From Candidatus Magasanikiibacteriota bacterium (GTDB lineage Bacteria > Patescibacteriota > Patescibacteriia > Magasanikbacterales > 2-02-FULL-50-9b), in contig CAITMK010000001.1 in the NCBI GenBank assembly GCA_903893485.1, positions 1 to 44,559 of the forward strand: 44,559 bases of DNA, written 5' to 3'. Position numbers and translations under genes: made by a program. Positions 2,925 to 10,180 of this stretch are shown here, one piece after another. Below the pieces are notes generated by a model that saw only the letters and a program-made list of their open reading frames with translations, was not told where the DNA came from and made no database searches. Position 1 is the stretch's first letter. Every line of letters begins with the position of its first letter.

Positions 2925-5066
2925 ATGTCCAAACTTGTTATTGTAGAGTCTCCTACCAAAGCCAAAACGATAGCTAAGTTTTTGGGCAAAGGTTACGTGG
3001 TCGAATCTTCATTCGGCCATATTCGTGATCTGCCAAAATCAAAGCTCGGTGTGGACACCGAACATGATTTCGAAGTGAAATATTTAGTGCCTCGCGACAA
3101 AACTGCGCGCGTAAAAGAATTAAAAAAACTTGCGGCAGCGGCCGATGAAATCTTATTCGCGACAGATGAAGATCGCGAAGGAGAAGCAATTTCATGGCAC
3201 CTTGCGGAAGTGCTCGGCGAAAATCCAGCAAAAATTAAACGCATCACGTTTCACGAAATTACCAAAAAAGCGATCGAACATGCAATCGAACATCCACGCA
3301 AATTAGATTTATACATGGTGGATGCGCAGCAAGCACGCCGCATTGTTGATCGCCTCGTGGGCTATGAACTCTCACCATTTTTATGGAAAAAAGTTCGCGG
3401 TGGGTTATCTGCAGGCCGTGTTCAATCAGTTACCGTACGTCTCATCGTTGAACGCGAACGCGAAATCCAAGCATTCGTTCCGGAAGAATATTGGACCATT
3501 GATGCCCTGCTCCGCGCTGATGCAACAACTTTTGAATCAAAACTTTCTGCAATTAACGGCGAAAAATTAGATAAATTTGCAATCAAAACCGCCGACGAAG
3601 CGCGCGCAATTGAACAAGCACTTGCCAGTGTAAAACTCACCATCGACGCGGTGGAGAAAAAAGGTGCAACTCGCCAAGCACCAGCACCATTTACCACTTC
3701 AACACTTCAGCAAGAGGCTAATCGCCGTCTTGGTGCCACCGCAAAACTCACCATGATGCTTGCGCAGAAGTTATACGAACTTGGTCACATCACCTACATG
3801 CGTACCGACTCGGTAAACATGAGTACTGATTTTCAGGCAGCAGCAGTAAGCTACATTACCAGCACGTTTGGCGCAGAGTACACCACAGGTCCTCGCAGCT
3901 ACACCAGCAAATCAAAAGGCGCGCAAGAAGCCCACGAAGCAATTCGCCCAACAGATGTTACTGCAACCGCGGAACGCCTTGCTTCAACCGGCGTTGACCC
4001 AAAAATGATTAAAATGTACGAACTCATTTGGCGTCGCGCAGTTGCATCCCAAATGTCTGGCGCAGAATTTACCCAGACAGGTATTGATATTTCAGGCACC
4101 GGCACGGACAAGAAAAAATATACCTTCCGTGCAACCGGACAAATCATTAAATTTTCAGGTTTCATGGCCGTGTATCCAGATGCGCAAAAAGAAACGATCA
4201 TGCCGGACGTAAAAGAAGGCCAGGCAATCGGGATTGAATCGCTCAGCGGCGTGCAACATTTTACCGAACCGCCAGCACGATACAGCGACGCATCAATCGT
4301 TAAAGCGCTCGAAGAATACGGCATTGGCCGCCCATCAACCTACGCGCCAACAATTGCAACCGTTATTGATCGCGGCTATGTTGAACGCGATGACCGCCGA
4401 CTCAAACCAACTGAAATCGCGTTTACGGTAACCGATATGCTTGTTGCGCATTTTCCACAAATCACTGATTACGAATTTACCGCGGACATCGAATCACAGC
4501 TCGACGGAATTGCAGAAGGCGAAAAAGAATTAGTGCCCGTGCTCCATCATTTTTACGATCCATTCAAAAAAAATCTGATCGAAAAAACAAAATCAGTTGT
4601 TGCAGAAAAACCAGCTGATATTCCAACCGACGAAATTTGTGACAAGTGTCAAAAACCAATGGTAATCAAAACCGGCCGCTTTGGTAAATTTTTAGCATGT
4701 ACCGGTTATCCTGCGTGTAAAAATACTAAACCTATTTTTGTTCCAAGCGGAGTAAAGTGCCCAGTCTGTAACGAAGGCGACATCATCGAACGTCGCTCAC
4801 GTTTTGGTAAATTATTTTATTCCTGCAGCCGCTATCCAGATTGCAAAAATGCGTATTGGGACAAGCCAACCGGCGAATTATGCACCACGTGTGGTGCCAT
4901 GATCGTCCAACCACTTAAGGGCGAAGCACGATGCAGCAACAAAGAATGTAAAACCAACGAAGGCCGACCAAAAGGCCGCGGCGGATTTAAAAAGAAGGTG
5001 GTTGAACCCGAAGTTGTAGCCGCTGAGCCAGTGAAAAAGAAAAGAGCGCCCCGAAAAAGCAAATAG
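2925..5066 (+). CDS. topA: DNA topoisomerase I
   Basis: LVIVESP, ATDEDREGE (TOPRIM), SAGRVQ, ITYMRTDS (catalytic Tyr), C-terminal Cys4 zinc ribbons and Lys-rich tail. Confidence 0.98.
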   Translation: MSKLVIVESPTKAKTIAKFLGKGYVVESSFGHIRDLPKSKLGVDTEHDFEVKYLVPRDKTARVKELKKLAAAADEILFATDEDREGEAISWHLAEVLGENPAKIKRITFHEITKKAIEHAIEHPRKLDLYMVDAQQARRIVDRLVGYELSPFLWKKVRGGLSAGRVQSVTVRLIVEREREIQAFVPEEYWTIDALLRADATTFESKLSAINGEKLDKFAIKTADEARAIEQALASVKLTIDAVEKKGATRQAPAPFTTSTLQQEANRRLGATAKLTMMLAQKLYELGHITYMRTDSVNMSTDFQAAAVSYITSTFGAEYTTGPRSYTSKSKGAQEAHEAIRPTDVTATAERLASTGVDPKMIKMYELIWRRAVASQMSGAEFTQTGIDISGTGTDKKKYTFRATGQIIKFSGFMAVYPDAQKETIMPDVKEGQAIGIESLSGVQHFTEPPARYSDASIVKALEEYGIGRPSTYAPTIATVIDRGYVERDDRRLKPTEIAFTVTDMLVAHFPQITDYEFTADIESQLDGIAEGEKELVPVLHHFYDPFKKNLIEKTKSVVAEKPADIPTDEICDKCQKPMVIKTGRFGKFLACTGYPACKNTKPIFVPSGVKCPVCNEGDIIERRSRFGKLFYSCSRYPDCKNAYWDKPTGELCTTCGAMIVQPLKGEARCSNKECKTNEGRPKGRGGFKKKVVEPEVVAAEPVKKKRAPRKSK

Positions 5067-5074
5067 GTACTACA

Positions 5075-5102
5075 GAAAAACCGCCCTTACGGGCGGTTTT
5101 TC
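5075..5102. terminator. Bidirectional intrinsic terminator (topA / minus-strand sRNA-A)
   Basis: GAAAAACCGCCC-TTAC-GGGCGGTTTTTC, perfect stem giving a U-tract in both directions. Confidence 0.9.
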
Positions 5103-5168
5103 AATGTTTGCGCTACTGATTCAATCCCGTTGGCCTGTAGTGATACGGACCAGGGATGAGCAGCGCGT
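5075..5168 (-). ncRNA. Putative small RNA A (~94 nt, long hairpin with loop CGUAUCACUACA)
   Basis: Minus-strand TTGCCA-17-TATATT promoter; stems GCGCUGCU/AGUAGCGC, AUCCC/GGGAU, UGGUC/GGCCA with G-U pairs only on the minus strand; ends in the shared terminator. Confidence 0.6.
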
Positions 5169-5175
5169 AGACCAA

Positions 5176-5204
5176 AATATACCAGAAAAAAATAAGCCTG
5201 GCAA
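5176..5204 (-). promoter_or_regulatory. sigma70 promoter of sRNA-A
   Basis: TTGCCA (5204-5199), 17 bp, TATATT (5181-5176). Confidence 0.65.
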
Positions 5205-5231
5205 GTATTTTTTCTATGGTTTTACGGTGAC

Positions 5232-5346
5232 TCTCTCGGGGGTCATCCGCAGGCGCGGCGGCCCGGAGTCTTGGCCGCGCCAAGACGAGCCGCGTCGAGG
5301 CCGAGCGCAAAATCCCGGCGAGGATTTTGACGCGACCCCCAAGAGA
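5232..5346. repeat. ~100-bp structured palindromic repeat, copy 1 (REP/MITE-like)
   Basis: GGGGTCATCCGCAGGC...GAGGCCGAGCGCAAAATCCC...GGATTTTGACGCGACCCC, shared with 9080-9180; terminal IR GGGGTC/GACCCC. Confidence 0.85.
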
Positions 5347-5361
5347 AACTCCGGAAAATCA

Positions 5362-5390
5362 TTGACACTTTTTACCAATTTTTTTATACT
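5362..5390 (+). promoter_or_regulatory. sigma70 promoter of sRNA-B
   Basis: Near-consensus TTGACA-17-TATACT; predicted +1 at A5397. Confidence 0.8.
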
Positions 5391-5396
5391 GGTACC

Positions 5397-5477
5397 AGTG
5401 ATACGGACCGGCAAAATCACCAATTGTTGGCCCAAAAAAGTCCTGCTTGCAAAACTTGCTCGCACGGGCTTTTTTGC
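5397..5477 (+). ncRNA. Putative small RNA B (~80 nt)
   Basis: Starts 7 nt after TATACT; hairpin GGACCGGCAA/UUGUUGGCCC; terminator AAAAAAGUCC-UGC...GCA-CGGGCUUUUUU (5434-5475); rel has a separate downstream promoter. Confidence 0.65.
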
Positions 5478-5487
5478 TTTTTTACCC

Positions 5488-5516
5488 TTGTCAGGACATC
5501 TTTTTTCCGTTATGCT
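5488..5516 (+). promoter_or_regulatory. sigma70 promoter of rel
   Basis: TTGTCA-17-TATGCT, 21 nt before the ATG. Confidence 0.6.
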
Positions 5517-5537
5517 CTGTATTAGATTGTCTTTCAT

Positions 5538-7034
5538 ATGCAACATCCTCAAGATATTCCGCCGCCAGAAAATCCAACTTTGCAATTATTGCTCGATACC
5601 ATTCGTGAACGCCGCCCCACGGCCGATCTCACCATGGTGCAGTTAGCGTACGAATTTGCAGATGCAGCTCACTCCGGGCAAATTCGTAAGTCTGGCGTAC
5701 CATACATCATTCATCCGCTGTGCACTGCCATTACGCTTGCACAAATGAATTTAGATCCAGTGGTGGTAGTTGCCGGTCTTTTGCACGATGTTCCAGAAGA
5801 TACCGCCGTAACAATCGAAGAGCTTGAAAAAAACTTTGGAAAAGAAGTTGCGCATTTAGTTGCAGGCGTTACCAAGCTTGGTAAAATTAAATATCGCGGC
5901 ATCGAACGCTACATCGAAAATTTGCGTAAAATGTTTGTGGCCATGGCCGAGGATATTCGCGTCATCATTATTAAGTTTGCGGATCGCTTGCATAATTTAA
6001 ACACGCTCGAACATTTGCCACCAAAAAAACAATATCGCGTCGCGCTCGAAACTTTGGAAATTTATGCGCCAATCGCGAACCGATTAGGTATGGGGGAAAT
6101 GAAAGGTCAACTCGAAGATTTGTCTTTCAAATATGTGTACCCAAAAGAATATGCATGGGTGCGCGGCTTAGTTGAAGAACGCTCTGAACAAAAAGAAGCA
6201 TACATTAATGAAGTGAGTCAAAAACTTGAAGCGGAATTAGCAAAACAAAATATCCCTGTCGTTTCCGTAAGCGGCCGATTAAAACGTTTGTACAGTTTGT
6301 ACGAAAAATTATTACGTCACGACAAAGACATTGAAAAAATTCATGATTTAGTTGCGCTGCGTGTGATTGTAAAAAATGCCGCGGACTGCTACACCGCACT
6401 GGGCGTGATTCATAATATTTGGCGCCCCATGCCCGGCCGTTTTAAAGATTATATTGCACAACCAAAACCAAATGGGTATCAATCACTGCACACCACGGTT
6501 TTTGCCGAGCAAGGTAAAATTGTTGAATTTCAAATTCGCGATGAAGAGCAAAATATGAACGCCGAATTTGGTATTGCCGCACATTGGGTGTATGACGAAA
6601 CTGGATCAAAAGCAACGAAACAAATTAAGTGGGTGCGCGAATTGGCGGCCGCGGGCGATGCGATGACGCGCCTCAAAGATTTAGAAAATTTAAAAATTGA
6701 TATTTTTGAAAATCGCATTTTTGTGTTTACCCCAAAAGGCGATGTGATTGATTTGCCAGAAAACGCAACGCCCGTTGATTTTGCATTTGCGGTTCACACC
6801 CAAATCGGCAATCAATGTGCGGGCGCGCGCGTGAATGATCGCATTGTAAGTTTGGACCAACCATTAAAATCCGGTGACGTAATCGACATCATTGTTGATA
6901 AATCAAAAAAAGGCCCAAGCGCCGATTGGATTAAATTTGTAAAAACAACTCACGCAAAAACGTGCATCAAACAATATAGCAAAACGTCACTTGCAAATTG
7001 GCTGAAGCGCGCACTACCAACTCGTGGAAAATAA
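5538..7034 (+). CDS. rel: RelA/SpoT (p)ppGpp synthetase/hydrolase, C-terminally short
   Basis: PYIIHP, LLHDVPED (HD), KFADRLHN, KPNGYQSLHT, EFQIR, TGS (FTPKG..TPVDFAF); 498 aa with no ZFD/ACT. Confidence 0.95.
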   Translation: MQHPQDIPPPENPTLQLLLDTIRERRPTADLTMVQLAYEFADAAHSGQIRKSGVPYIIHPLCTAITLAQMNLDPVVVVAGLLHDVPEDTAVTIEELEKNFGKEVAHLVAGVTKLGKIKYRGIERYIENLRKMFVAMAEDIRVIIIKFADRLHNLNTLEHLPPKKQYRVALETLEIYAPIANRLGMGEMKGQLEDLSFKYVYPKEYAWVRGLVEERSEQKEAYINEVSQKLEAELAKQNIPVVSVSGRLKRLYSLYEKLLRHDKDIEKIHDLVALRVIVKNAADCYTALGVIHNIWRPMPGRFKDYIAQPKPNGYQSLHTTVFAEQGKIVEFQIRDEEQNMNAEFGIAAHWVYDETGSKATKQIKWVRELAAAGDAMTRLKDLENLKIDIFENRIFVFTPKGDVIDLPENATPVDFAFAVHTQIGNQCAGARVNDRIVSLDQPLKSGDVIDIIVDKSKKGPSADWIKFVKTTHAKTCIKQYSKTSLANWLKRALPTRGK

Positions 7035-8800: not shown

Positions 8801-8887
8801 GCCCAGATGGCGGAATTGGTAGACGCACAGGACTCAAAATCCTGCGGCCGCAAGGTCATGAGAGTTCGATTCTCTCTCTGGGCACCA
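8801..8887 (+). tRNA. tRNA-Leu(CAA)
   Basis: GCCCAGA/TCTGGGC acceptor stem, CAGGA-CTCAAAA-TCCTG anticodon arm, long variable arm, GTTCGA T-loop, encoded CCA. Confidence 0.97.
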
Positions 8888-8912: not shown

Positions 8913-8985
<73 letters not shown>

Positions 8986-8986
<1 letters not shown>

Positions 8987-9058: not shown

Positions 9059-9201
9059 AGTTTGTTTTTGTTTTGAGAAGGGGTCATCCGCAGGCATTGC
9101 GGGCCGGTGCCGCGCACCATGCGCGGCGAGCAATGCCGAGGCCGAGCGCAAAATCCCGCCGGGGATTTTGACGCGACCCCTGAACAAAATAAAAACAAAC
9201 T
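9059..9201. repeat. Structured palindromic repeat, copy 2 (core 9080-9180) inside a 17-bp AT-rich inverted repeat
   Basis: Same conserved segments as 5239-5339; flanks AGTTTGTTTTTGTTTTG / CAAAATAAAAACAAACT. Confidence 0.85.
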
Positions 9202-9202
9202 T

Positions 9203-10180
9203 TTAATTTGTCGGCCACGTAAAATTATCAAACGTCCACTCCGCAAGCATCGCGGTTTCCGTGAATCGTTTATAGACATCCCCCGCACCCATCACCACCA
9301 CGCGAATTTCATGTCCATCATCACTCCGAATAAGCGAGGCAAAATTATATCCGGCTTCATCGGTGTAACCCGTTTTTCCACCTTCAATCGTTGCCGCCTT
9401 CAGCGGCACCGCACCAGTTAAAACCCAATCAGTTGCTTTCACGGTTTTTTTCTTTCCGCTTTCAAGTTCGTGAATCGAAACTTTTTCTTCAACACTTGTC
9501 ACTTTAATTTGCGCGGATGAAAGCGCAATTTTAATTAAACGCGAAACATCTTTTGCGCTCCCTACATTGTGCGCCGATAAACCCGTTACATCTTCAAAAT
9601 GCATGGTCGGCATTCCCAAATCTGCGGCGCGCTGATTCATAAGCACTGCAAATTGTTCGGGTGTAAAACCACTTGCCTGCACCAGCGCATTCATTGCGGT
9701 ATTCAATGAACCAACTAAACCCGCGGCAAATAAATCATGCAATGTATATGTTTCGCCAGCAACCAAATCTTTTGATGAATCAACCACCGCAGAATTTGAA
9801 ATGGTTGTCGTTGCGTTCCAATTCGTAATTTTTTCTGTAAGTAAAAGCGCGGTCATTAATTTTGTAACCGAAGCCAGCGCTTGTGGCTGATCTGCATTTT
9901 TTGAAAAAATAATTGCATCGCTCGCCGCGTCTTCAACAATCACGTGCGGCGCGGTTAATGTTTTTGTAAATTGCGCACCTGATAAATTAATCGGCGGCTT
10001 TGGTGGTTGATGCGCTTCGGGCAACACATTTTTGAGCGGCGCCGCGGCAATATCAGAAATACGATCAAGCGCGTTTTGAGAATTACTAACACGCGACGCG
10101 GCAACTGCGTGCCCCGCCTGCTGACCGCCAATAACACCGATTACAGCGGCAACTGCGATGATGGCAACAAAGCTTCGCAT
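9203..10180 (-). CDS. D-alanyl-D-alanine carboxypeptidase (peptidase S11)
   Basis: Signal/anchor peptide; SxxK (ASVTK), SxN (SLN) and KTG (GKTGYT) motifs. Confidence 0.92.
   Translation of the reverse strand: MRSFVAIIAVAAVIGVIGGQQAGHAVAASRVSNSQNALDRISDIAAAPLKNVLPEAHQPPKPPINLSGAQFTKTLTAPHVIVEDAASDAIIFSKNADQPQALASVTKLMTALLLTEKITNWNATTTISNSAVVDSSKDLVAGETYTLHDLFAAGLVGSLNTAMNALVQASGFTPEQFAVLMNQRAADLGMPTMHFEDVTGLSAHNVGSAKDVSRLIKIALSSAQIKVTSVEEKVSIHELESGKKKTVKATDWVLTGAVPLKAATIEGGKTGYTDEAGYNFASLIRSDDGHEIRVVVMGAGDVYKRFTETAMLAEWTFDNFTWPTN

What the first reader, a model, noticed from the sequence alone, without database searches (positions are those of the whole stretch)
5075..5477. Divergent pair of mutually complementary small RNAs between topA and rel: candidate RNA-only module
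Seen: two outward-facing, non-overlapping units. RNA-A (minus, ~5168-5075) has TTGCCA-17-TATATT, a long hairpin and the shared topA terminator. RNA-B (plus, ~5397-5477) has TTGACA-17-TATACT and its own terminator. The DNA direct repeat AGTGATACGGACC (5139-5151 and 5397-5409) makes the first 13 nt of RNA-B perfectly complementary to GGUCCGUAUCACU, which spans the apical loop of RNA-A (14 bp with a G-U). A second repeat, GTTGGCC (5129-5135 and 5426-5432), gives 7 more bp (GGCCAAC:GUUGGCC). G-U wobbles fall on the predicted strand of each RNA, neither encodes a credible peptide, and rel has its own promoter, so B is not simply a leader. Inference: a trans-encoded sRNA/anti-sRNA pair, possibly an RNA-RNA toxin-antitoxin (type VIII-like), a sponge, a two-piece guide/scaffold RNA, or a switch for read-through into the stringent-response gene. 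I recognise no known family.
Basis: partly seen in the sequence, partly recalled or inferred. Interest (0 to 1): 0.85.

Follow-up and report, generated by a model that had tools for sequence, protein, structure and literature searches.

The report
Divergent pair of complementary small RNAs
Between the topA and rel genes of a tiny Patescibacteria genome sit two small non-coding RNA genes, read in opposite directions, whose conserved loop and 5' end can base-pair with each other, so they probably form a regulator and its decoy; this has not been shown experimentally.

Summary

The 13-mer alone is weak evidence. The window holds 4 such repeats, and 46% of simulated windows hold at least one. Conservation carries the case.

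The same two units lie between topA and rel in 3 of 5 genomes of the genus and on 2 metagenome contigs. They were not found elsewhere. Promoter hexamers and RNA bodies are conserved, whereas promoter spacers and stem sequences change, the stems with compensation.

Only an 8-nt core is shared everywhere: B's 5' end AGUGAURC pairs with A's apical loop GYAUCACU. This is the best accessible duplex in 3 of 3 lineages.

No Rfam family matches, no ORF is conserved, and no Hfq was found.

Most likely this is a genus-specific sRNA/anti-sRNA pair. An RNA-only toxin-antitoxin system or a rel switch is neither supported nor excluded. No expression data could be obtained.

In this genome a multi-copy, strongly covarying GC-rich repeat has inserted between the two promoters.

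The parts
5068..5169 (-). RNA-A. The predicted transcript is about 100 nt. A long hairpin spans 5110-5166 and its apical loop carries GUAUCACU, the complement of 5139-5146. It ends in the terminator shared with topA.
   Evidence: Fold of -48.6 kcal/mol, z = -8.3. The minus-strand fold is more stable than the plus-strand fold in 3/3 lineages. There are 22 G-U cells against 5 A-C cells on this strand. Homologues occur in G003 and G004. Eight pairs changed on both sides, reached by 1/500 shuffles. The transcript ends are inferred, not measured.
5176..5204 (-). Promoter of RNA-A: TTGCCA-17-TATATT, with TG before the -10.
   Evidence: The equivalent TTGTCA-17-TATAAT is found in G003. In G004 only TTGTCA-17-TATATA can be read by eye; the scan does not call it.
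5075..5102 (.). Bidirectional intrinsic terminator, a perfect 12-bp stem flanked by an A run and a T run. It serves topA on the plus strand and RNA-A on the minus strand.
   Evidence: and 95 (I3).
5139..5151 (-). A-side copy of the 13-mer. As RNA it reads GGUCCGUAUCACU and lies in the apical loop and upper stem of A. The conserved core is GYAUCACU.
5223..5365 (+). Inserted GC-rich structured repeat, with a three-way junction and AT-rich outer arms. It is one of 14 copies in this genome and separates the two promoters, which are back to back in relatives.
5362..5390 (+). Promoter of RNA-B: TTGACA-17-TATACT.
   Evidence: The equivalents are TTGACA-17-TAAACT in G003 and TTGACA-18-TAAAAT in G004.
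5397..5477 (+). RNA-B. The predicted transcript is about 80 nt. It has a single-stranded 5' end AGUGAUAC, hairpin 1 at about 5405-5432 (loop AAUCACCAA, stem closed by GGCC), and a terminator at 5433-5476 with a conserved AAAACU loop.
   Evidence: Fold of -29.1 kcal/mol, z = -3.4. The plus-strand fold is much more stable than the minus-strand fold in 3/3 lineages. There are 21 G-U cells against 4 A-C cells. Covariance model R1 finds it only in G000, G003 and G004. The transcript ends are inferred.
5397..5409 (+). B-side copy of the 13-mer, forming the first 13 nt of RNA-B. The conserved core is AGUGAURC.
5488..5516 (+). rel's own promoter-like site: TTGTCA-17-TATGCT.
   Evidence: It is also a 70% complementary inverted copy of the RNA-A promoter region (I2).

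Best explanation
Two genus-specific small non-coding RNA genes are transcribed divergently from sigma-70-type promoters.

RNA-A (minus strand, about 100 nt) is a long hairpin. Its apical loop presents 5'-GYAUCACU-3'. RNA-B (plus strand, about 80 nt) starts with a single-stranded 5'-AGUGAURC-3', followed by a short hairpin, an A-rich linker and a terminator.

The loop of A pairs with the 5' end of B. The core is 8 bp in all lineages and extends to 13-14 bp in this genome. The two RNAs would therefore titrate each other. Most likely B is a trans-acting regulator with a 5'-end seed, and A is its anti-sRNA (a sponge or decoy).

In relatives the two promoters overlap in their -35 hexamers, so the two RNAs probably also compete at the level of transcription initiation. 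In this genome a mobile structured repeat has pushed the promoters 158 bp apart.

Shown by sequence and comparison: the conserved units, their strands, their structures and the complementarity. Inferred: the transcripts themselves, the pairing in vivo, which RNA is the regulator, and any target. No link to rel beyond adjacency is shown.
For: Conservation at the same locus:
- Both units lie between topA and rel in G000, G003 and G004, and on 2 metagenome contigs.
- TopA identity among these species is only 73-77%.

Promoters:
- Promoters are called for both units in G000 and G003, and for B in G004.
- In G003 the two -35 hexamers overlap by 5 bp: 3126-3131 and 3127-3132.

Pattern of variation among 4 G004-like variants, as variable sites:
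- A hairpin 0/51.
- B 5' domain 1/39.
- The two -10 hexamers 0/12.
- Shared -35 0/6.
- Promoter spacers 9/17 and 4/17.
- B terminator 14/36, with the structure kept.

Compensatory changes:
- A has 8 pairs changed on both sides, reached by 1/500 shuffles.
- B has 5 such pairs, reached by 12/500 shuffles.

Strand:
- Folds are more stable on the proposed strands in 3/3 lineages for both RNAs.
- G-U against A-C cells are 22:5 for A and 21:4 for B.

Pairing:
- The best accessibility-weighted contiguous A:B duplex is A loop with B 5' end in 3/3 cognate pairs.
- Net energies are -6.7, -5.8 and -5.1 kcal/mol.
- Shuffled B reaches these values in 0/100, 4/100 and 4/100 trials.
- The variable position of the core co-varies: A:U in G000, G:C in G003 and G004. 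A ninth pair is G:C in G000 and A:U in G003.

Other:
- No ORF is conserved in frame.
- No Rfam family matches.
Against: - There is no expression evidence of any kind. No RNA run could be listed.
- Only three independent lineages exist, so the covariation statistics are thin. The shuffle control overstates significance for related sequences.
- The conserved intermolecular pairing is short (8 bp) and modest (about -5 to -7 kcal/mol net).
- Full-length duplex energies are no better than those of shuffled B: 442/500, 301/500 and 209/500 shuffles do as well.
- Non-cognate A/B pairs use the same site with similar energy, so there is no cognate specificity.
- A conserved identical 8-mer on one DNA strand is also what a DNA-binding site would look like.
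- The A promoter in G004 lacks the T at the last position of the -10 and is not called by the scan.
- The module is missing from 2 of 5 genomes of the genus, so it is dispensable.
- A crude scan found no target mRNA.
Confidence: 0.5

Rival explanations
1. The two RNAs are real but independent. Each acts on other targets or partners, and the shared 8-mer is conserved for reasons unrelated to A:B pairing. For example, both arose from one duplicated segment, or each pairs with a third RNA.
For: - The pairing is short and modest, and shows no cognate specificity.
- Global duplex energy is not better than shuffles.
- In B, the last two core nucleotides also take part in B's own hairpin 1.
Against: - The motif sits exactly in the apical loop of A and at the very 5' end of B in 3/3 lineages. 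These are the two classic accessible positions.
- It is the top-ranked accessible duplex in each lineage.
- The variable core position co-varies between A and B.
Confidence: 0.17
2. AGTGATRC is a DNA operator. A transcription factor binds the two direct repeats, which flank the divergent promoters about 89-95 bp apart in G003 and G004, and co-regulates both. The RNA complementarity is a by-product.
For: - The two copies are identical, on the same DNA strand, and bracket the promoter pair.
- B's copy covers +1 to +8, a typical repressor position.
- GTGAT...ATCAC in B is also a DNA inverted repeat.
Against: - The motif is not enriched in the genome or in intergenic DNA. There are 52 copies in total, against about 58 expected from my arithmetic (2 x 947,940 / 32,768). 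Six are intergenic against 4.6 expected.
- In A the site is about +18 to +30 and lies in the loop of a hairpin whose stems co-vary. A DNA site does not require that.
- In this genome the repeat insertion moves the sites 258 bp apart without loss of either.
Confidence: 0.12
3. B is a cis-acting leader or attenuator of rel. Transcription from the B promoter reads through B's terminator into rel under some condition. A modulates this in trans by pairing with the 5' end of the leader.
For: - B always lies directly upstream of rel on the same strand.
- In G003 only about 25 nt separate B's terminator from the rel start codon, and no promoter is called there.
Against: - In G000 and G004 rel has its own promoter-like site downstream of B.
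- In G004 a 140-nt repeat element lies between B and that promoter.
- Relatives without the module express rel from a promoter next to the start codon (sequences).
- No conserved anti-terminator alternative was found in the folds; it was not searched for exhaustively.
- No Rfam riboswitch or leader matches.
Confidence: 0.1
4. The pair is an RNA-only toxin-antitoxin module (type VIII-like). One RNA is harmful when unpaired and the other neutralises it.
For: - The architecture resembles the unconventional, divergently encoded type I loci, where the antitoxin's 5' end pairs over a short stretch. For zorO-orzO this is 18 nt (PMC3919570, passages read). Here there is no ORF.
- Distribution within the genus is patchy.
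- The intergenic region is an insertion hot spot that holds a PemK-like toxin gene in G004.
Against: - There is no evidence of toxicity.
- The module sits at one fixed chromosomal locus. It is not on mobile DNA, not multi-copy, and not found in viral contigs: 0 of 60 pattern hits pass the covariance model.
- SdsR/RyeA are mutually cis-encoded, overlapping RNAs (PMC6610125, abstract seen). These two do not overlap.
Confidence: 0.05
5. A/B is, or derives from, the RNA control cassette of the PemK/MazF-like toxin gene. In G004-like loci that gene follows A's terminator on the same strand. A would be the toxin's structured 5' leader or RNA antitoxin, and B its antisense regulator.
For: - In 4 of 4 G004-like loci a 158-aa PemK-like ORF (PF02452, E = 8e-9) starts about 25 nt after A's terminator, with no protein antitoxin gene between.
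Against: - G000 has no homologue of the ORF, and G003 has none at this locus, yet both keep A and B under constraint.
- Among 30 loci with PemK homologues from the order, only the G004 locus itself has an A-like RNA.
- The homologues carry their own promoter-like sequence directly upstream.
- The two G004 contigs carry PemK alleles only 46% identical next to identical A RNAs.
Confidence: 0.04

Closest known systems
sRNA / sponge-RNA pairs, e.g. RoxS and its sponge RosA in Bacillus subtilis (PMC8216469; search listing and abstract only)
   Same: Two independently transcribed small RNAs; one carries a site complementary to the other's seed, so each controls the other's availability. It works without Hfq, and no Hfq was found in this genome.
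   Different: - Here the two genes are adjacent and divergent, with overlapping -35 boxes in relatives.
- The pairing is between an apical loop and a 5'-terminal tail.
- No mRNA target is known and nothing has been shown experimentally.
- There is no sequence relationship.
Unconventional type I toxin-antitoxin loci with a divergently encoded antitoxin (zorO-orzO, tisB-istR, shoB-ohsC; PMC3919570, passages read)
   Same: Divergent, non-overlapping genes. There is a short continuous complementarity, and it involves the very 5' end of one sRNA.
   Different: - No toxin ORF: neither RNA has a conserved reading frame.
- The complementarity is 8-14 nt rather than 18 nt.
Type VIII (RNA-RNA) toxin-antitoxin pair SdsR/RyeA (PMC6610125; abstract only)
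   Same: Both partners are non-coding RNAs with the potential to neutralise each other.
   Different: - SdsR/RyeA are encoded on opposite strands of the same DNA and are fully complementary. A and B do not overlap and share 8-14 nt.
- Toxicity has not been tested here.
Antisense-RNA kissing control systems of plasmids (RNAI/RNAII, CopA/CopT; recalled, not checked in a paper)
   Same: Recognition starts from an exposed apical loop on a stable hairpin.
   Different: - Those are cis-antisense pairs on replicons.
- The Rfam RNAI match here (23.6 bits against a gathering score of 47) rests on the terminator only.

Membership tests
Any Rfam 15 family | Score at or above the family's gathering threshold | tested here: not met
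   Window-wide gathering scan: only 2 tRNAs. E-value scan of 4500-6200: the best matches are STnc50 at 25 bits against 55, RNAI at 23.6 against 47 and SAM_alpha at 21.2 against 36. All are carried by terminator or promoter sequence.
Type I toxin-antitoxin (divergent, zorO-orzO-like) | One transcript encodes a small toxic protein | tested here: not met
   A and B of G000 contain no ATG. The GTG/TTG frames differ in frame and length among the 3 lineages.
Type I toxin-antitoxin (divergent, zorO-orzO-like) | A divergently encoded sRNA with short complementarity to the partner's 5' region | tested here: met
Type VIII toxin-antitoxin (SdsR/RyeA-like) | Partners encoded on opposite strands of the same DNA (fully cis-antisense) | tested here: not met
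   A spans 5068-5169 and B spans 5397-5477, with no overlap.
Type VIII toxin-antitoxin (SdsR/RyeA-like) | One RNA is toxic when expressed without the other | not testable with these tools
   Needs expression experiments.
Type III toxin-antitoxin (ToxIN-like) | Tandem RNA repeats followed by a terminator and a protein toxin gene | tested here: not met
   No tandem array lies in 4900-5700; the only hit is GCTTTTTT x2. No toxin gene lies downstream in G000 or G003. In G004 a PemK-like ORF follows A, but A is a single hairpin.
sRNA / sponge (anti-sRNA) pair | Two separate transcription units, each with its own promoter and terminator | tested here: inconclusive
   Promoter and terminator sequences are conserved in 3 lineages. 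No transcript data are available.
sRNA / sponge (anti-sRNA) pair | Conserved, accessible complementarity between the two RNAs | tested here: met
   The 8-bp core is top-ranked in 3/3 lineages, and the variable position co-varies.
sRNA / sponge (anti-sRNA) pair | One RNA lowers the level or activity of the other in vivo | not testable with these tools
   Needs genetics or RNA interactome data.
cis-acting leader / attenuator of rel | No promoter lies between the element and the regulated gene, and an alternative structure competes with the terminator | tested here: inconclusive
   A promoter-like site lies between B and rel in G000 and G004 but not in G003. No conserved anti-terminator is seen in the folds.
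Housekeeping RNAs (SRP RNA, 6S RNA) | Match to the family model, and presence in all relatives | tested here: not met
   RF00169, RF01854 and RF00013 give no match anywhere in G000. A and B are missing from G001, G002, G005 and G006.

The most novel reading that the evidence does not exclude
The pair is a self-contained RNA-only switch in an ultra-small Patescibacteria genome. Two non-coding RNAs exclude each other twice: at transcription, through overlapping -35 boxes, and after it, through loop to 5'-end pairing. This would form a bistable or addictive (type VIII-like toxin-antitoxin) module placed at the entry to the stringent-response gene rel, whose transcription B can feed into (as in G003).
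Probability: 0.07. Interest if true: 0.8.

Novelty: new variant of a known kind. Interest (0 to 1): 0.45.

Why it matters
My one literature search on the topic turned up no study of base-pairing small RNAs in Patescibacteria (CPR bacteria). These organisms have minimal genomes and few regulators, and this one has no detectable Hfq.

A conserved pair of small RNA genes that can pair with each other would be a first concrete, testable example of riboregulation in this group. It comes with clear predictions: transcript ends, an 8-nt interaction site, and compensatory mutants. The back-to-back promoters with overlapping -35 boxes make it a compact model for coupled transcriptional and post-transcriptional antagonism.

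Its reach is limited. It is confined to one genus, is dispensable there, and its target is unknown.

The repeat inserted between the promoters is a second lead. It is a strongly covarying RNA or single-stranded-DNA fold of about 140 nt, present in several copies per genome in all seven genomes of this family, and no Rfam family matched either window copy.

Tried and rejected
- **Expression.** The look-up of sequencing runs failed twice because the machine was busy. The third try listed no RNA holder.
- **Full-length duplex and cofold energies.** These were not discriminating; shuffled B does as well. I replaced them with an accessibility-weighted contiguous-duplex scan.
- **Wider homologues of B by pattern.**
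  - Order: 3 of 240 genomes.
  - Genome contigs: 11 stretches, of which 3 are real by my reading.
  - Metagenome contigs: 13 stretches, of which 2 are real.
  - Viral contigs: 60 stretches, none passing model R1.
- **Weak covariance-model hits.** These proved to be terminators. One lay inside an oxidase-like ORF in G006.
- **Candidate target.** A 14-nt match of B's 5' end lies upstream of a superoxide-dismutase-like gene (C11:38214-38227). It falls in that gene's promoter spacer, is not transcribed, and is absent from 5 of 5 relatives checked. It is a chance match.
- **Crude scan for seed sites near start codons.** 47 rows, none convincing.
- **Peptide coding.** No frame is conserved.
- **SRP or 6S identity of A.** No match. 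A short recalled SRP motif found nothing convincing.
- **Link to the PemK-like gene.** Judged incidental.
- **Supplementary files.** Supplements of papers were not consulted.
Full report
**1. What is in the window**

The 471-bp spacer 5067-5537 lies between topA and rel. topA (2925-5066) has Toprim, Topoisom_bac and zinc-ribbon domains. rel (5538-7034) is a RelA/SpoT homologue with HD_4, RelA_SpoT and TGS domains.

- The 13-mer AGTGATACGGACC lies at 5139-5151 and 5397-5409.
- GTTGGCC lies at 5129-5135 and 5426-5432.
- TTGCCA-17-TATATT is on the minus strand (5204-5176). TTGACA-17-TATACT is on the plus strand (5362-5390). A third promoter-like site for rel lies at 5488-5516.
- A perfect bidirectional terminator lies at 5075-5102.

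The minus-strand RNA from about 5169 folds into a long hairpin plus terminator (-48.6 kcal/mol, z = -8.3). The plus-strand RNA from 5397 folds into a small hairpin plus terminator (-29.1 kcal/mol, z = -3.4).

No Rfam family reaches its threshold. The sub-threshold matches rest on terminator or promoter sequence.

**2. Is it more than chance?**

Taken alone, the 13-mer is not. The window holds 4 exact direct repeats of 13 nt or more within 500 nt. Markov-simulated windows average 0.56, and 46% of them hold at least one. The genome has only these two exact copies, plus a one-mismatch copy inside coding sequence. The case therefore has to rest on comparison with relatives.

**3. Relatives**

topA-rel adjacency is common in the order: 25 of 30 Rel loci examined. 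The spacer ranges from 12 to 973 bp.

Both units are present at this locus in G000, G003 and G004, the last on two alternative contigs. They are absent from the spacer in G001 (129 bp), G002 (38 bp) and G006 (12 bp).

Searches for further copies gave the following:
- A strict pattern for B finds 3 of 240 genomes of the order, all in one genus.
- It finds the same genomes among all GTDB species representatives: 11 stretches, of which 3 are real by my reading.
- It finds two more G004-like contigs among metagenomes: 13 stretches, of which 2 are real.
- It finds nothing real in viral contigs: none of 60 pattern hits passes the covariance model.
- Covariance models for B (R1) and A (R2) give strong hits only in those three genomes. 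For R1 the E-values are 3e-10 or better, and all other hits are 0.0127 or worse across the 7 genomes of the family. In 151 genomes of the order, 6 further weak hits are terminators. R2 behaves likewise in the 7 genomes of the family.

A and B were never found apart.

**4. Evidence that both are functional RNA genes**

Across the three lineages, TopA is 73-77% identical to the window's TopA. Over this distance the sequence between landmarks has largely diverged while the landmarks stay:
- The -35 and -10 hexamers keep 17-18-nt spacing.
- A purine start lies 7-8 nt after the -10.
- The hairpins and terminators are retained.

The scans call both promoters in G003 and B's promoter in G004. A's -10 in G004 (TATATA) is not called, which counts against it.

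Among four G004-like variants, variable sites are distributed as follows:
- A's hairpin: 0/51.
- B's 5' domain: 1/39.
- The two -10 hexamers: 0/12.
- The shared -35: 0/6.
- The two promoter spacers: 9/17 and 4/17.
- B's terminator: 14/36, and it still folds.

Pairs changed on both sides number 8 in A (reached by 1/500 shuffles) and 5 in B (12/500). Slid controls are clearly lower. With only three deep lineages these numbers are indicative, not proof.

Strand assignment is supported in two ways:
- Folds are more stable on the proposed strands. For A the values are -49.7, -46.4 and -46.4 kcal/mol against -47.2, -39.7 and -41.0. For B they are -29.1, -33.3 and -28.9 against -22.2, -21.5 and -15.7.
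- G-U cells outnumber A-C cells by 22:5 in A and 21:4 in B.

No reading frame is conserved.

**5. The complementarity**

Only AGTGATRC is shared by A and B in all lineages: 13 nt in G000, 9 in G003 and 8 in G004.

As RNA, this core is the first 8 nt of B. Its first 6-7 nt are unpaired in B's predicted fold. It is also the apical loop of A.

An accessibility-weighted scan ranks this duplex first in 3 of 3 cognate pairs. Net energies are -6.7, -5.8 and -5.1 kcal/mol. Shuffled B reaches these in 0/100, 4/100 and 4/100 trials.

The R:Y position co-varies: A:U in G000, G:C in the others. A ninth pair is G:C in G000 and A:U in G003, and is mismatched in G004.

Several results count against a strong claim:
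- Full-length duplex energies do not beat shuffles.
- Non-cognate pairs use the same site equally well.
- The extra GGACC of the 13-mer has an internal explanation. In both RNAs it pairs with the conserved palindrome GGCC.

**6. Architecture**

In G003 the two -35 hexamers overlap by 5 bp: TTGTCA at 3126-3131 on one strand and TTGACA at 3132-3127 on the other. G004 reads the same by eye. The two start sites would then be about 67 bp apart by my count. Two polymerases could hardly bind at once; this is an inference.

In G000 the promoters are separated by a 143-158-bp element (5205/5223-5365). It belongs to a repeat family with 14 copies in this genome. In G004 another copy of the same family lies after B's terminator instead (G004:C42:3158-3320 and C34:2921-3065). 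The element is therefore an insertion in G000, and it left both promoters intact.

**7. Most likely mechanism**

The most likely reading is a genus-specific sRNA/anti-sRNA pair. I favour B as the regulator because a 5'-terminal single-stranded seed is the layout of known trans-acting sRNAs and of OrzO (PMC3919570). I favour A as the decoy because a stable hairpin presenting one site is the layout of a sponge or antisense recognition loop. The direction is a guess.

- Shown: conservation, strands, folds and complementarity.
- Inferred: transcripts, pairing in vivo, direction, and competition at the promoters.
- Unknown: targets and physiological role.

No Hfq gene was found, which fits a direct loop-to-tail contact.

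**8. Rivals**

- **Independent sRNAs.** This cannot be excluded with three lineages.
- **DNA operator.** The 8-mer is not enriched genome-wide or in intergenic DNA: 52 copies, of which 6 are intergenic against 4.6 expected. Its place in the loop of a covarying hairpin is unexplained by this reading. It nonetheless remains possible.
- **Leader of rel.** This is plausible only in G003, where no promoter separates B from rel. G000 and G004 have one.
- **RNA-only toxin-antitoxin.** There is no positive evidence. The partners do not overlap, unlike SdsR/RyeA (PMC6610125, abstract).
- **PemK cassette.** In G004-like loci a PemK/MazF-like ORF follows A.
  - G000 has no homologue.
  - Only 1 of 30 PemK loci has an A-like RNA, namely the G004 locus itself.
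  - The homologues bring their own promoter-like sequence.
  - The two G004 contigs carry 46%-identical alleles beside identical A RNAs.
  - This looks like an independent insertion into a permissive spacer.

**9. Comparison with known systems and novelty**

The pair works like an sRNA/sponge pair (RosA/RoxS, PMC8216469, abstract only). It is built like the divergent type I loci (zorO-orzO), but it has no toxin ORF. It is not a member of any Rfam family.

I rate it a new variant of a known kind. It is of moderate interest as a candidate example of riboregulation in Patescibacteria, a group for which my one literature search turned up no such study. The interest is tempered by its narrow distribution, its dispensability and the lack of any expression data.

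**10. Limits**

- No RNA data could be obtained.
- Supplements of papers were not consulted.
- E-values of my covariance models are rough.
- Transcript ends are predictions.

Noticed in passing
window 5223-5365 (+) and 9064-9206 (+); also G000 C4:60392-60533, C4:61612-61754, C4:62903-63045, C3:33192-33334, C3:34007-34149, C12:59154-59292, C12:59376-59521, C12:84297-84437, C14:93899-94040, C14:10195-10334, C9:50960-51106, C8:19204-19344: A GC-rich structured repeat of about 140 nt, with a three-way junction and long AT-rich outer arms.
- It has 14 copies in this genome, all intergenic in the 9 places I looked at, for example flanking clpP-like and L7/L12-L10-like ORFs (my reading of the N-termini) and following tRNA-Met.
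- 33 of 47 pairs changed on both sides and 92.8% of cells are paired; 0/500 shuffles reach this.
- It is present in 7 of 7 genomes of the family (4-14 copies each) and in 14 of 151 genomes searched in the order.
- The two window copies give no Rfam match.
- It occupies different sites in the same spacer in G000 and G004, so it is mobile.
- The strand is unclear: 18 G-U against 9 A-C cells.
   Followed up: partly
L021 584-1060 (-) = G004:C34:2199-2672; also G004:C42:3748-4173: A solitary PemK/MazF-like ORF of 158 aa (PF02452, E = 8e-9) is inserted between topA and RNA-A in G004-like loci, with no adjacent antitoxin ORF.
- The two G004 contigs carry alleles only 46% identical at the same site.
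- The family has 4-9 copies in the other four genomes of the genus and occurs in 51 of 240 genomes of the order. It has none in G000.
   Followed up: partly
whole genome G000: No SRP RNA (RF00169, RF01854) and no 6S RNA (RF00013) was detected in a genome rated 98.85% complete. A short recalled SRP motif also found nothing convincing. Either the RNAs are too divergent for the models or they lie in unassembled gaps.
   Followed up: partly
window 5179-5205 and 5487-5513: The RNA-A promoter region and the rel promoter region are 27-nt inverted copies of each other, 70% complementary including the T-rich spacer (I2). This could reflect duplication of a promoter or a shared regulator.
   Followed up: no
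L021 1463-1491; L022 and L019 spacers; G000 C11:38200-38240: In several relatives the -10 of rel ends 6 nt before the ATG (TAACAT-GTACGT-ATG, TAATAT-GTACGT-ATG). The superoxide-dismutase-like gene has its -10 8 nt before the ATG. This suggests leaderless or nearly leaderless mRNAs in this genus.
   Followed up: no
G004 contigs C34 and C42 (L054, L053): The same topA-rel locus is assembled twice in G004. The RNA-A hairpin is identical in both, but the B terminators, promoter spacers and PemK alleles differ. This suggests two strains in one bin, which is rated at about 1% contamination.
   Followed up: no
window 8801-8887 and 8913-8986 (+): tRNA-Leu(CAA) and tRNA-Met(CAT) lie in tandem. They are followed about 80 nt later by a copy of the GC-rich repeat.
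   Followed up: no
window 5447-5455 and homologous positions in G003 and G004: The apical loop of RNA-B's terminator keeps the sequence AAAACU in all lineages, although the stem sequence is replaced wholesale. It may be a second functional site.
   Followed up: no
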